64,000 bases of DNA from Escherichia coli (lineage in GTDB: Bacteria > Pseudomonadota > Gammaproteobacteria > Enterobacterales > Enterobacteriaceae): assembly GCF_044324785.1 (NCBI RefSeq), contig NZ_CP172127.1, one strand, 5' to 3'. Position 1 is the first letter of the stretch. Every line of letters starts with the position of its first letter. Made by a program: the position numbers. This document shows, one piece after another, positions 52,884 to 55,800 of this stretch.

Positions 52884-55800
52884 TTATCGTTATGATCTAC
52901 AAAAGCCACCAGCATAACAAATCCGTGGTCGGTGGCAAAAAAAGCAGATTTCGCTTATTAAAACTGCACATTGATTGAAGTTTGAATAAACGCGCGATTT
53001 TTTAAAAAAGTTTGTTGACCTCAGGTCATGATTTCCCTAAATTAGCGCCCGTTCCAGCAAGACAGGAACGACAATTTGGTGAGGTGTCCGAGTGGCTGAA
53101 GGAGCACGCCTGGAAAGTGTGTATACGGCAACGTATCGGGGGTTCGAATCCCCCCCTCACCGCCATCTTTAAAGAAGAGCTCGTACGAAAGTACGGGCTT
53201 TTTTTTCGTATATTGCACACACTGGGGGGATGAGAAGCCCCGACCGGGGGTCGACAACTGGCGACAGCCAGTTGGACAGACCGTGAACGCAGTGAGCGGG
53301 CTGCCCGCAGGGCGAGCGAAGCGAGTCAATCCCCCCTCTCACCGCCATATTTAAAGAAGAGCTCGTACGAAGGTACGGGCTTTTTTTCGTATATTTCACA
53401 CACCGGGGGATGAGAAGCCCCGACCGGGGGTCGACAACTGGCGACAGCCAGTTGGACAGACCGTGAACGCAGTGAGCGGGCTGCCCGCAGGGCGAGCGAA
53501 GCGAGTCAATCCCCCCTCTCACCGCCATATTTAAAGAAGAGCTCGTACGAAGGTACGGGCTTTTTTTCGTATATTTCACACACCGGGGGATGAGAAGCCC
53601 CGACCGGGGGTCGACAACTGGCGACAGCCAGTTGGACAGACCGTGAACGCAGTGAGCGGGCTGCCCGCAGGGCGAGCGAAGCGAGTCAATCCCCCCCTCA
53701 CCGCCATCTTTAAAGAAGAGCTCGTACGAAAGTACGGGCTTTTTTTTCGTATATTGCACACACTGGGTCTCCCCCCCCGCCCAAGTCTGTTAGGGCGAGG
53801 GGTAATCGTGCACATCAACTGTCTGGTTGCTCAGTCAACAATCAAAATGCGCAAGAGAGTACAGAACATATATGCGTTATCTGGTCACTTCCTATAACTT
53901 CCTCACTTATTAAAATGCCCCCAACGGAAATACATGTCACATGCCATCATAAAATCGTTATGCCAGAGGAATCGACAATGGAAAAAATAGTAAATTAAGC
54001 ATGGTACATAGCAGAGTAAAAAATAGACTTCAAACCAAATCCGCCATTCCACAAGCGTTGCCAATACCGACACCAGCGTAATCCACATCACTTCAATAAC
54101 CAGCAATATGAATAACCGAAGCCAAAGCGGCTTGGCAAAAAAGGTCGACAACGCATTTTCACTGGAGAAAAACAGATCAATTTCCTGCAAAAAAAGCCTG
54201 CCCAGAAAAGCGTACCGCTTGGAGAAGCGCAGAAAAAACAGATTAATCGCCAACACTACGCCACAAAGAATGAGCAATGCAATTATCGATTTAAACGTTA
54301 ACCACTGCCCCTCTGTCACAAAAGAATCACTGTTACGCAACGGGCTGATAGTAAGCAGGTTAACAACCGTTGAGATGCACACCGAAAGCAGCACATAGCG
54401 AGTCAGACTTTTATATTTTACCTTTTTCGCCACTGAAATAGCGACCTGCTTGACATAACTGGTGCGGATCATCCGAAACAGCAGAAAGATAACCAACGGC
54501 CCAAGTAACGAAATCAGGAACAGCGCATATAACGAGGGTAGAAGCTGGTATAGCCCCCAACTCATTGCACTCAACATGATTAGCGACAGAAATCCTGCCA
54601 CCAGAGGTTGCGTAAGAAATAATTCTATTTTGTAGTTCTGCTTTTTCTTAAACCACGAAAAATCGATATTCTTCGTGACGCATTTATAAGCCCAGTACGC
54701 CTTGAGATCAAAAATAAAATTATACAGCACCAGGGCCAGAATCCCACTAACGACACCAATATCCTCAGATGGAAAAGTAAACCCTGCATTTTTCCAATAA
54801 AAGCCTATCAGAATAAGTCCAATAGCATAAATGTATATCAGATTTCGTTTATCCTGAAAGCGAATAAAAGTTAAATAATCAGGAATCATTTGAATACCTT
54901 CGCATCACTAAATGCTTTACGACAATGCATAACTCGTTGCTGATCCACGCCAGCAAAATCATTTAACATATTCCCCAAATAGGGCTTATTACTTATTTCA
55001 AGGAAAGCTACCGGGGTTGGCATATTCAGAAATGTATCGAGAGATTCAGTCCATTTCACCGTATGAGTTAAGTGTAATGAGAGATTTTCTTTGATAATTG
55101 ACGGAGCGACCTCGCTTTTTGCTGTTACGTTCATCAGAACCTGATGCTCTGGTGAAGCGATATCCAGTCCGGCAAGATAATCGCGCATTGCCTGAACGCC
55201 GTCTTCCATCAAACGCGTGTGCCAGGCACCGCTCACACCGAGTTTAACCGGTTCGTATCCAGCGGCCATCAGCAGCGTGGCAAATTCATTCAACGCCGCC
55301 TGCGTTCCCCCAATAACCTGCTGGCGCGGCGTGTTATCACAGCTAATATCCAGCGCAATGCCTGATTCCGTAATCATCGTCTGCAGTTGTTCGCGGTTGA
55401 TGCCTTTAACCGCCAGCATTGCGCCTTTATTTCTCTGGCTTTCGTCATGCATCAGGCTGGCTCTGAAGTGAATCATGCCAAATAGCGTCTCAAGAGAAAG
55501 AGCTCCGGCGGCGTAGAGCGCACTGTATTCACCAACGCTGTGTCCGCAGGAGCCCACAACCGTTAAATTCTCAAGACGCTCACGGCAGAGGGTATAGAGC
55601 GTTACATTAATTGCGGTCACCGCCAGTTGTTGTACCGTCGTTTGAATAAGGCGATTCATCGGCCCTTTCTGACACAGGCGACGCAGGTTCAGCCCGGAAA
55701 TATCGCTGGCACAATCCCAGATATGTTTTGTACTGGCATTGAGATCCCAAAGATCGCTGCCCATACCAATAACCGGATTACCCTGACCGGCAAAAAGCAG

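What the first reader, a model, noticed from the sequence alone, without database searches (positions are those of the whole stretch)
53148..53767. Tandem array of ~180-bp units carrying copies of the serX terminator and degenerate tRNA 3' ends, wrapped around a GC-rich structured core
After serX (ending caccgcca at 53165) the sequence terminator + ~110-bp core + tRNA 3'-end mimic repeats three times with periods of 182, 180 and 179 bp, followed by a fourth terminator copy before unique sequence begins at 53768. The first and fourth terminator copies are identical (tcttt...gaaagtacgggc, T8), whereas the two internal copies share variants (tattt...gaaggtacgggc, T7; cccccctctcaccgcca instead of ccccccctcaccgcca). 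That pattern suggests the array arose by duplication or insertion between direct repeats. The core (gggggatgagaagccccgaccgggggtcgacaactggcgacagccagttggacagaccgtgaacgcagtgagcgggctgcccgcagggcgagcgaagcgagtcaat) is far more GC-rich than its flanks and contains perfect inverted repeats (caactggc/gccagttg with a 4-nt loop; gcggg/cccgc; ccccg/cgggg). Each core ends in a T-loop/acceptor-like segment and is followed by a terminator, so each unit could be a small structured RNA or a tRNA-derived att-like module marking the island boundary. A C8 homopolymer tract (53771-53778) sits at the array/unique junction. The 196-aa ORF the track reports across the array is an artefact of stop-free repeats.
Basis: seen in the sequence. 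Interest (0 to 1): 0.7.

Follow-up and report, generated by a model that had tools for sequence, protein, structure and literature searches.

The report
RtT repeat array after serX tRNA
The repeats after the serX tRNA gene are real, but they are the E. coli serX copy of the long-known "RtT" tRNA-trailer repeat family, which public genome annotation already labels at this locus, so the finding is essentially ordinary.

Summary
Positions 53147-53767 hold a 3.4-copy tandem array of about 180 bp. Each unit is an intrinsic terminator, a short spacer and a GC-rich core of about 105 nt, and ends in a copy of the last 19 nt of tRNA-Ser(GGA).

The units belong to the RtT family (Rfam RF00391, first described as the 178-bp repeats after tyrT). 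The same array at the same locus in K-12-type genomes scores above Rfam's threshold, and NCBI's annotation pipeline labels it "RtT sRNA". The window's copies fall below threshold (30-35 vs 45 bits), mainly because of one SNP per unit.

Copy number is highly polymorphic in E. coli. The core was absent in 15% of 5,426 genomes, and others had up to 12 copies. The core plus the tRNA-end copy folds into a helix set that covaries across many tRNA identities (Tyr, Ser, Lys, Gln, Pro, Arg, Met) in Proteobacteria.

The tRNA-end copies also contain the 14-bp attachment core used by serX-integrating islands. However, no island DNA lies between the copies here.

The 196-aa ORF is an artefact. What the RNA does remains unknown. 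Verdict: already known, low interest.

The parts
53015..53043 (+). sigma-70-like promoter of serX (TTGACC-17-TAAATT)
   Evidence: Consensus scan, 9 of 12 matches. It is the only promoter-like site on the + strand in 52850-53950, and none lies inside the repeat units.
53078..53165 (+). serX, tRNA-Ser(GGA). Its last 19 nt (53147-53165, AATCCCCCCCTCACCGCCA) form the segment repeated at the end of each unit.
   Evidence: ARAGORN; Rfam tRNA 53.8 bits; repeat family D2.
53171..53206 (+). Intrinsic terminator 1: a 16-bp hairpin (GC core GCUCGUAC-GAAA-GUACGGGC extended by A/U pairs) ending in a T8 run
   Evidence: RNA fold of 53166-53347; sequence.
53219..53347 (+). RtT module 1: G-run (P1 5' strand), AUGAGAA, P2 hairpin, GUCGA, P3 hairpin CAACUGGC/GCCAGUUG, CCCGCAGGGCGAG, GCGAAGC, GAGUCAAUCC. 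It ends in a tRNA 3'-end copy with one extra T (CCCCCCTCTCACCGCCA).
   Evidence: Rfam RF00391 34.6 bits, E=3e-4, below gathering score 45. Own family model R1 64.6 bits, E=4e-14 (this unit was one of the 31 seed sequences). Fold.
53354..53387 (+). Intrinsic terminator 2 (variant GAAGG loop side, T7)
   Evidence: Terminator scan; repeat family D2.
53399..53527 (+). RtT module 2 (100% identical to its neighbouring unit over 180 nt)
   Evidence: Rfam 29.7 bits; R1 61.0 bits, E=3e-13; repeat family D1.
53534..53567 (+). Intrinsic terminator 3
   Evidence: Terminator scan.
53579..53706 (+). RtT module 3, ending in an exact copy of the tRNA's last 19 nt
   Evidence: Rfam 32.9 bits; R1 64.6 bits, E=4e-14.
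53712..53767 (+). Terminator 4 plus spacer (identical to 53171-53226), the end of the array. Unique sequence begins at 53768.
   Evidence: Repeat family D2: copy 53688-53767 is 100% identical to copy 53147-53226. The zero-core allele in strain EC101 joins at the same point.
53771..53778 (+). C8 homopolymer just outside the array; polymorphic between strains (GCCCCCG in SY033 and EC101)
   Evidence: Sequence; alignment A1. It shows no significant similarity to the core.
53693..53706 (+). Second exact copy of the 14-bp attB core CCCCCTCACCGCCA used by serX/serW-integrating islands. The first exact copy is 53152-53165, inside the tRNA. One-mismatch copies lie at 53334-53347 and 53514-53527.
   Evidence: Pattern search: 4 matches against 0.02 expected. 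The direct repeat TGGCGGTGAGGGGG is described in PMC3064760.
53169..53759 (-). 196-aa ORF: not a gene, but a stop-free reading of the repeats
   Evidence: ORF list. In K-12 the 181-nt period shifts the frame every unit, giving overlapping 137-aa ORFs. No CDS is annotated here in the K-12, TG1 or SY033 records.

Best explanation
This is the serX allele of the RtT repeat family, a tandem array of tRNA-trailer modules.

**Shown**
- Each unit of about 180 bp consists of (i) a strong intrinsic terminator, (ii) a spacer of about 20 nt, and (iii) a GC-rich core of about 105 nt that ends in (iv) a copy of the last 19 nt of tRNA-Ser(GGA), including CCA.
- The core's 5' G-run pairs with the copied T-stem/acceptor 3' strand (helix P1). 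P1 closes a multi-helix fold whose helices P1, P2 and P5 covary across the family.
- The array is homologous to the classic tyrT 178-bp repeats, and its copy number differs between strains.

**Inferred**
- The array grows and shrinks by unequal homologous recombination or slippage between units.
- It is transcribed from the serX promoter only when RNA polymerase reads through the terminator after the tRNA.
- The tRNA-like 3' ends then let the tRNA 3'-processing machinery cut read-through transcripts into RtT RNAs of about 180 nt. This is by analogy with the 171-nt rtT RNA released from the tyrT transcript.

**Unknown**
- What the RNA does. The only published lead is a modulatory effect on the stringent response.

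**Side effect**
- Each intact tRNA-end copy duplicates the 14-bp attB core recognised by serX-specific island integrases.
For: **Identity**
- Rfam RtT matches all three cores over the full model (1-130), with E = 3e-4 to 5e-3 in a 3-kb search.
- The same locus in K-12 TG1 and SY033 is about 97% identical. It scores 46.3 bits (gathering score 45) and is annotated 'RtT sRNA' x3.
- The K-12 tyrT locus has the same architecture: period 178, 3.1 copies, RtT at 133-137 bits, and rttR = 171 nt.

**Family-wide features**
- In one-per-species genomes the motif lies 3' of tRNA-Tyr or tRNA-Ser(GGA) on the same strand throughout Enterobacterales. It also follows tRNA-Ser(CGA), tRNA-Gln and tRNA-Ser(GGA) in other Proteobacteria.
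- In metagenomes it also follows Lys, Pro, Arg, Met and other Ser tRNAs.
- Of 269 modules with an upstream tRNA, 198 end in an exact copy of that tRNA's last 12 nt.

**Structure**
- 77-83% of cells are paired. The covariation score is 0.28 against 0.12 in shuffles (0 of 500 shuffles reach it) and at most 0.12 for slid registers. P2 and P5 show many double changes, and G-U pairs are present.
- A family model finds only the three array units in the 64-kb window, at E of about 1e-13.

**Polymorphism**
- The core was detected in 4,612 of 5,426 E. coli genomes, with 1-12 places per genome.
- Alleles with zero, truncated, 2, 3 and 4 cores were all seen.

**Transcription logic**
- There is one promoter-like site upstream of serX and none inside the units.
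- A hairpin plus T-run follows every CCA.
Against: - The window's own copies score below Rfam's gathering threshold (34.6, 32.9 and 29.7 against 45 bits).
- No expression data were available. A strong terminator lies between the tRNA and every core, so the serX-type cores may be transcribed very little.
- The processing step is taken from the tyrT case, whose units lack such terminators (0 of 63 spacers).
- P1 covariation is partly forced, because its 3' strand is by definition a copy of the tRNA.
- Helices P3 and P4 could not be tested, because the alignment was inconsistent there.
- The function is unknown.
Confidence: 0.85

Rival explanations
1. The units are scars of site-specific integration. 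On this view, each tRNA 3'-end copy is an att site left by successive insertions of a small integrative element or island at serX, and the cores are remnants of that element.
For: - The tRNA-end copies contain the 14-bp direct repeat used by OI-48, OI-43 and SRL-PAI integrases at serX/serW. It occurs exactly twice, and twice more with one mismatch.
- In strain PEC145 a tyrosine-integrase island abuts the cryptic tRNA end followed by the RtT unit and ycdU.
- DNA downstream of the array differs between strains.
Against: - Only about 160 bp of non-coding, structurally conserved sequence lies between the repeats. There is no integrase and no island DNA.
- The same core occurs after at least eight other tRNA isoacceptors (about a dozen anticodons), always matched to the local tRNA and with compensatory changes in its helices.
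- tyrT, which has the same repeats, is not explained by this model.
- In PEC145 the island is inserted at the real tRNA, not between units.
- Rearrangement breakpoints in L004 and L006 lie inside cores, not at att copies.
- No recurrent recombinase gene neighbours the modules.
Confidence: 0.07
2. The array is a neutral duplication scar. The extra units are functionless copies generated by slippage and are not maintained by selection.
For: - Copy number ranges from 0 to many.
- In 15% of E. coli genomes no core was detected, and many others retain only a truncated first core.
- The internal units in the window are 100% identical, which points to a recent duplication.
- A terminator precedes every core.
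Against: - The module is conserved from Alphaproteobacteria to Enterobacterales, with invariant motifs and covarying helices.
- The tyrT homologue yields a stable RNA (literature cited).
- Neutrality may hold for the copy number, but not for the existence of the module.
Confidence: 0.06
3. The array is a non-autonomous mobile DNA element that targets tRNA 3' ends and acts as folded single-stranded DNA, rather than as an RNA gene.
For: - The module occurs after many unrelated tRNA identities.
- Copy number is variable.
- CCCG(A/C)AGGG and GCGAAGC resemble the GNA-triloop mini-hairpins known to be very stable in DNA (from my own knowledge; the sequences are).
Against: - No transposase, HUH, reverse-transcriptase or integrase family recurs next to the modules; the neighbours simply follow host synteny.
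- Modules at different tRNAs within one genome are highly diverged. tyrT and serX in K-12 score 137 and 46 bits.
- The orientation is always that of the tRNA, and G-U pairs are tolerated. Both points favour an RNA-level structure.
Confidence: 0.02

Closest known systems
tyrT-tyrV RtT repeats / rttR (rtT RNA) of E. coli K-12, the founding member of Rfam RF00391
   Same: - A tandem array directly 3' of a tRNA gene, on the same strand. The period is 178 against 180 bp, and there are 3.1 against 3.4 copies.
- Each unit ends in the last ~19 nt of the tRNA, including CCA.
- Shared motifs: GGAUGAGAAG, GACC, GGUUCGA, CCCG(A/C)AGGGCGA and GAGU(A/C)AAUCC.
- Shared helix P1, formed between a 5' purine run and the copied T-stem 3' strand.
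   Different: - The tRNA identity differs, and with it the T-stem-matched segments (GGGGG/CCCC against GAAGG/CUUC).
- The serX units have a longer, different middle part (P3 is CAACUGGC/GCCAGUUG).
- The serX units carry an intrinsic terminator after every CCA. tyrT-type spacers never do (0/63 against 58/64).
- The Rfam score is 30-46 bits against 133-137 bits.
- No tpr-like ORF is annotated.
RtT-family elements next to other tRNA genes (Lys and Asn tRNAs in Pasteurellaceae; an RtT hit in Xanthomonas)
   Same: - The same Rfam family is reported next to non-Tyr tRNA genes (PMC4986893, PMC3300014).
- Lys- and Gln-linked modules from metagenomes pass Rfam's threshold.
- They share the same module architecture and terminal tRNA-end copy.
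   Different: - They come from other hosts and other tRNAs.
- Most published mentions are database hits rather than analyses.
attB/att direct repeats of serX- and serW-integrating islands (OI-48, OI-43, SRL-PAI; P4-family integrase)
   Same: The 14-bp core CCCCCTCACCGCCA (the last 14 bp of serX) is what these islands duplicate. The array carries extra copies of it.
   Different: - No integrase or island lies between the copies.
- The sequence between them is a conserved structured module.
- The arrays exist without islands and at tRNAs with no known island.
Functional tRNA-transcript spacers such as the 3' external transcribed spacer of leuZ (an sRNA sponge)
   Same: Both are non-tRNA pieces of a tRNA primary transcript that could act as RNAs after processing (from my own knowledge; not tested here).
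   Different: - There is no sequence relationship.
- The leuZ spacer is neither a repeat nor a tRNA-end mimic.
- No sRNA-binding evidence exists for serX RtT.

Membership tests
RtT RNA (Rfam RF00391) | Covariance-model score at or above the curated gathering threshold (45 bits) | tested here: not met
   The window copies score 34.6, 32.9 and 29.7 bits, as full-length matches with E = 3e-4 to 5e-3. This threshold is operational. The shortfall comes largely from one SNP per unit (GGGGUUCGA to GGGGGUCGA), with smaller differences at the G-run, the C-run/T insertion and the terminator. K-12 and SY033 alleles at the same locus score 46.3 bits.
RtT RNA (Rfam RF00391) | Orthology with sequences accepted as RtT | tested here: met
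   The locus is the same (ghrA-serX-array-ycdU) and about 97% identical to arrays annotated 'RtT sRNA' x3 in NZ_CP196935.1 and NZ_CM185152.1.
RtT RNA (Rfam RF00391) | Lies directly 3' of a tRNA gene on the same strand and ends in a copy of that tRNA's 3' end, including CCA | tested here: met
   tRNA-end copies lie at 53329-53347, 53509-53527 and 53688-53706. Family-wide, 198 of 269 modules have an exact copy of the last 12 nt.
RtT RNA (Rfam RF00391) | Conserved motifs and helices of the family fold (P1 closing helix, P2, P5) | tested here: met
   The alignment to 30 diverse modules is A2. The structure is supported by covariation. The window units score 61-65 bits with the family model R1, and the MFE fold shows P1, P2 and P3. 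P2 has a G-G mismatch, and P5 is reduced to GCGAAGC.
RtT RNA (Rfam RF00391) | Released as a discrete RNA by processing of the tRNA primary transcript | not testable with these tools
   This is known only for tyrT (Bosl & Kersten 1991, as cited in PMC4986893 and PMC3318445). No expression data are available for serX units.
Integrase att repeats flanking a genomic island | Direct repeats equal to the tRNA 3' end | tested here: met
   The 14-bp core is exact at 53152-53165 and 53693-53706, and has one mismatch at two further sites. The direct-repeat definition comes from PMC3064760.
Integrase att repeats flanking a genomic island | An integrase gene and horizontally acquired DNA lie between the repeats | tested here: not met
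   Only terminator, spacer and core (about 160 bp) lie between the copies, and no credible ORF is present. Compare PEC145, where an integrase island is present.
tRNA gene or pseudogene copies | A recognisable cloverleaf | tested here: not met
   ARAGORN finds only serX in the window. The Rfam tRNA model hits only 53078-53162. Only the last 19 nt of the tRNA are copied.
Protein-coding gene (196-aa ORF, minus strand) | Reading frame conserved in orthologous loci | tested here: not met
   The K-12 array has a 181-nt period, so the frame shifts in every unit. No CDS is annotated in the K-12, TG1 or SY033 records.

The most novel reading that the evidence does not exclude
RtT modules may be more than a tyrT curiosity. 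They could be a Proteobacteria-wide class of tRNA-trailer RNAs with a common design:
- The closing helix is built from a copy of the neighbouring tRNA's own T-stem/acceptor 3' strand.
- For the Ser(GGA), Lys and Pro types, the module sits behind the tRNA's intrinsic terminator.

On this design the module would be made only on terminator read-through. It would then present a tRNA 3'-end mimic, for example as a read-through-dependent decoy or sensor for tRNA 3'-processing enzymes, the CCA-adding enzyme, or the uncharged-tRNA/RelA pathway.

Several subtypes fall below Rfam's threshold and are effectively unannotated: Pro(GGG), Met, Arg, Ser(GCT/CGA), and this window's serX allele.
Probability: 0.25. 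Interest if true: 0.55.

Novelty: already known. Interest (0 to 1): 0.2.

Why it matters
For this locus, very little. It is a sub-threshold allele of a repeat family described in the late 1970s to 1991 and catalogued in Rfam, so the main practical lesson concerns annotation.
- Essentially a single SNP per unit drops real RtT copies below Rfam's and PGAP's cut-off.
- Gene callers can then read the repeats as a 196-aa ORF or a 'hypothetical protein'.

More broadly, RtT is a conserved structured RNA whose function has been unknown for over thirty years. Three features give concrete handles for experiments on that open question:
- Every module is tailored to its own tRNA.
- Most types sit behind a terminator.
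- The serX and serW versions multiply an island attachment core.

Tried and rejected
1. **Relic core in the flank.** I tested whether the 'unique' flank after the array, including the C8 tract, is a decayed RtT core. The best local alignment is only AGGGCGAG, and 277 of 1000 shuffles score as well, so I rejected the idea.
2. **Promoter inside each unit.** The spacer TATATT looked like a -10 box. The scan finds no sigma-70-like site within the units, and by eye there is no -35 or TG extension.
3. **Linked mobilising enzyme.** I clustered ORFs within 4 kb of modules at 145 loci. The clusters give only host synteny (purU, nar genes, ghrA, ycdX, ycdY, regulators) and no recurrent recombinase.
4. 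**Other Rfam matches in the region.** sX4, Thr_leader and a plastid 3'UTR family all score far below their thresholds and are driven by the tRNA or by the terminator hairpin and T-run. No ribozyme family matched.
5. **Literature linking serX and RtT.** No paper in the library holds both terms. One apparent lead on restriction systems did not contain the term in its current version.
6. **Helices P3 and P4.** The MAFFT alignment was out of register between subtypes, so I left them out of the tested structure.
7. **Strict P1 measure.** Consecutive pairing averages 6.2 bp with the cognate tRNA against 3.4 bp with non-cognate tRNAs. It is only 2-3 bp in some subtypes (Pro-GGG, Ser-GCT, Arg), so P1 length is not uniform.
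8. **Chance matches.** About a dozen pattern matches in each collection scan fell in coding DNA and were discarded as chance.
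Full report
**1.

Region 53147-53767 is a tandem array with period 180, 3.4 copies and 97% matches. It starts inside tRNA-Ser(GGA), serX, which lies at 53078-53165.

The 80-nt segment 'last 19 nt of the tRNA + terminator + spacer' occurs four times, at 53147, 53329, 53509 and 53688. The outer two copies are identical to each other, and so are the inner two. The two internal 180-nt units are 100% identical.

The C8 tract is at 53771-53778. The cores are 67-69% G+C, against about 50% nearby.

**2. What it is**

Rfam's RtT model (RF00391) matches each of the three cores end to end (model positions 1-130). 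The scores are 34.6, 32.9 and 29.7 bits, with E = 3e-4 to 5e-3. These are significant for the stretch searched but fall under the family's gathering score of 45.

The window is E. coli. The rne 5' UTR, SraB and the PyrC leader are present, and the region is 97-99% identical to E. coli chromosomes. At the same locus (ghrA-serX-array-ycdU), K-12 strain TG1 and isolate SY033 carry the same array. Their units score 46.3 bits and are annotated 'RtT sRNA' three times by NCBI's pipeline.

The alignment shows why the window misses the cut-off. Every core has GGGGGTCGA where the annotated alleles have GGGGTTCGA. The two internal tRNA-end copies also carry one extra T. In a spread of E. coli genomes, units with the window's allele are left unannotated and units with the TTCGA allele are labelled RtT. 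The curated MG1655 reference annotates nothing between ycdU (b1029) and serX (b1032).

**3. Comparison with the founding member**

The K-12 tyrT locus has tyrT, one RtT unit, tyrV, and then 3.1 copies of a 178-bp unit. Each unit ends in the last nucleotides of tRNA-Tyr. The RtT scores are 133-137 bits, and rttR is annotated as a 171-nt RNA.

The serX units share these features with tyrT:
- the motifs GGAUGAGAAG, GACC, GGUUCGA, CCCG(A/C)AGGGCGA and GAGU(A/C)AAUCC;
- the terminal tRNA-end copy.

They differ in three ways:
- Four short segments follow the T stem of the local tRNA (GGGGG/CCCC/GGGG/CCCCC for Ser, GAAGG/CUUC/AAGG/CCUUC for Tyr).
- The middle part is different and longer.
- An intrinsic terminator follows every CCA.

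**4. The family is broad and tailored to each tRNA**

Almost all true hits were Enterobacterales, always downstream of tRNA-Tyr(GTA) or tRNA-Ser(GGA) on the same strand. Further true hits followed tRNA-Ser(CGA) in an alphaproteobacterial MAG, tRNA-Gln(TTG) in Cellvibrionaceae and tRNA-Ser(GGA) in Porticoccaceae.

A second scan, of metagenomes, found modules 23-75 nt after Lys(TTT), Gln(CTG/TTG), Pro(CGG/GGG/TGG), Ser(GCT/TGA/CGA), Arg(TCT/CCT), Met, Tyr and Ser(GGA) genes.

Of 269 modules with a tRNA upstream, 198 end in an exact copy of that tRNA's last 12 nt, and 233 have at most three mismatches.

Rfam itself accepts the Lys and Gln types (54-78 bits). It does not accept the Pro(GGG), Met, Arg, Ser(GCT) or Ser(CGA) types.

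Published work already treats RtT as widely conserved and reports it next to Lys and Asn tRNA genes in Pasteurellaceae and in Xanthomonas. The breadth is therefore implicit in the databases, though I found no paper that analyses it.

**5. Structure**

I aligned 31 diverse modules (A2) and named three helices:
- P1: the run 5' of AUGAGAA paired with the copied T-stem/acceptor 3' strand.
- P2: GAAC... paired with ...GUUC.
- P5: the hairpin between GGGCGA and GAGUAAUCC.

On A2, 77% of cells pair and 15 of 21 pairs show double changes. The covariation score is 0.276 against 0.125 in shuffles (0 of 500 reach it) and at most 0.116 for slid registers.

A covariance model built from this alignment finds exactly the three array units in the 64-kb window, at 61-65 bits and E of about 1e-13. 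One window unit was among the 31 seed sequences.

On 150 metagenomic modules aligned to the model, 82.6% of cells pair and the covariation score is 0.281 against 0.118. That alignment is fitted to the model, so it leans towards the structure.

Three caveats apply:
- P1's 3' strand is a tRNA copy by construction.
- P1 is short (2-3 bp by a strict count) in some subtypes.
- P3 and P4 were not tested.

G-U pairs and the fixed orientation relative to the tRNA favour a structure read on the tRNA strand as RNA.

**6. Population behaviour**

The core was detected in 4,612 of 5,426 complete E. coli genomes, and at full length in 3,361. There are 1-12 places per genome, with a median of 2. These counts include copies at the paralogous serW locus, where some records call the repeats a 'hypothetical protein'.

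Alleles seen at serX:

| Allele | Strain |
|---|---|
| No core: tRNA, one terminator, spacer, then the same flank | EC101 |
| First core truncated and joined to dgcT | Z226-7 |
| Three cores plus a truncated fourth, joined to unrelated genes | S1-IND-01-A |
| Four cores | K-12 |
| Three cores | this window |

This pattern is what unequal recombination or slippage between 180-bp repeats, plus occasional deletions, would give. The recombination mechanism itself is inferred.

**7. Link to genomic islands**

serX and serW are the attachment sites of OI-48, OI-43 and SRL-PAI. Their 14-bp direct repeat is the last 14 bp of the tRNA. That 14-mer occurs exactly at 53152-53165 and 53693-53706, and with one mismatch at 53334-53347 and 53514-53527 (4 matches against 0.02 expected).

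In strain PEC145 a tyrosine-integrase island lies between the tRNA and the 'cryptic tRNA end + terminator + RtT + ycdU'.

The cores are nevertheless not integration scars. No island DNA lies between the copies here. The modules exist at tRNAs and in genomes without islands. No recombinase recurs next to them.

In the window the array is followed directly by ycdU and an intact cluster with unremarkable G+C, encoding FabD-like, ketosynthase-like and LolCDE-like proteins. K-12 has only an IS3-truncated remnant of that cluster.

**8. How it probably works**

Shown:
- the anatomy;
- the homology to RtT;
- the conserved fold;
- the single promoter-like site upstream of serX (53015-53043) and none inside the units;
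- a 16-bp hairpin plus T-run after each CCA.

Inferred:
- The cores are transcribed only by read-through of those terminators.
- The tRNA-like 3' ends direct the tRNA 3'-end processing enzymes to cut the read-through RNA into unit-length pieces, as reported for the tyrT rtT RNA.

Unexplained: why a terminator sits between tRNA and module in the Ser(GGA) (58 of 64 distinct spacers), Lys (11 of 12) and Pro (9 of 10) types but never in the Tyr type (0 of 63). The cellular role is unknown. The literature offers only an effect on the stringent response and induction under stress.

**9. The ORF**

The 196-aa minus-strand ORF exists only because the window's internal period (180) is a multiple of three. 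In K-12 the 181-nt period shifts the frame in each unit and yields overlapping 137-aa ORFs. No annotation of the K-12-type loci calls a gene there.

**10. Verdict**

The feature is the already known RtT repeat family at a locus where public annotation already marks it. The window's allele is a sub-threshold variant.

Interest is low. The residual interest lies in the family as a whole: an old structured RNA of unknown function, tailored to each tRNA and mostly hidden behind a terminator.

Noticed in passing
window 53903-63790 (minus strand): Directly after the array come ycdU and an intact operon-like cluster. It encodes an ACP S-malonyltransferase-like protein (54886-55830), two ketosynthase-like proteins (61642-62931 and 62870-63790), a LolC/E-like permease and a LolD-like ATPase (58023-59333 and 59974-60768), and several proteins with no family match. 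From memory it resembles the aryl-polyene type of cluster. In K-12 only ycdU and an IS3-truncated ymdE fragment remain.
   Followed up: partly
L247 (NZ_CP095083.1, infA-serW-clpA), locus 1177-1966: The paralogous tRNA-Ser(GGA) gene serW also carries serX-type RtT modules in some E. coli genomes. There the repeats are annotated as a 'hypothetical protein' (WP_012602745.1), probably the same kind of ORF artefact.
   Followed up: partly
Loci L127-L246 (metagenome contigs), e.g. L130, L149 (Lys), L173 (Pro-CGG), L143 (Pro-GGG), L213 (Met), L215/L232/L237 (Arg), L228 (Ser-GCT), L032/L229 (Ser-CGA): RtT-like modules follow many tRNA identities, each ending in a copy of its own tRNA's 3' end, and often in tandem. 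Rfam accepts the Lys and Gln types. The Pro(GGG), Met, Arg, Ser(GCT) and Ser(CGA) types fall below its threshold.
   Followed up: partly
Spacers between tRNA and first module across loci L007-L246: A hairpin plus T-run (terminator-like) lies between the tRNA and the module in 58/64 Ser(GGA), 11/12 Lys and 9/10 Pro spacers, but in 0/63 Tyr spacers. It is unclear why a supposedly co-transcribed RNA should sit behind a terminator.
   Followed up: partly
window 53300-53325 and the equivalent positions in units 2 and 3; family-wide motif CCCG(A/C)AGGGCGAG: CCCGCAGGG and GCGAAGC are C-GNA-G mini-hairpins. From memory, this type is unusually stable as DNA. The strands flanking P1 (AUGAGAA and GAGUMAAU, M = A or C) resemble a loop-E/sarcin-ricin-like internal loop. 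Neither idea was tested.
   Followed up: no
L004 1730-1770 (Z226-7); L006 2270-2300 (S1-IND-01-A): In other E. coli strains, deletions or replacements of the DNA downstream of serX have their breakpoints inside RtT cores (after GGCGACAG and after GACCGGG), not at the tRNA-end copies.
   Followed up: partly
L249 (NC_000913.3 1096830-1097564): The curated MG1655 reference has no feature in the 735-bp ycdU-serX gap, and locus tags b1030 and b1031 are absent from the record. Presumably these were early ORF calls on the repeats that were later withdrawn (inference).
   Followed up: no
window 53067-53235: Rfam's Xanthomonas sRNA family sX4 gives a weak full-length match (34.4 bits against a threshold of 70). 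The match spans the tRNA and ends at the G-run plus UGAGA that starts the RtT core. This suggests the sX4 model may itself be a tRNA-Ser plus the start of an RtT-like trailer.
   Followed up: no
window 2571-2739, 4600-4936, 26634-26683, 37249-37291, 47386-47477: Other Rfam families above threshold in the window are SraB, the rne 5' UTR element, the PyrC leader, ES036 and ES056. They are ordinary E. coli features that fix the genomic context.
   Followed up: no
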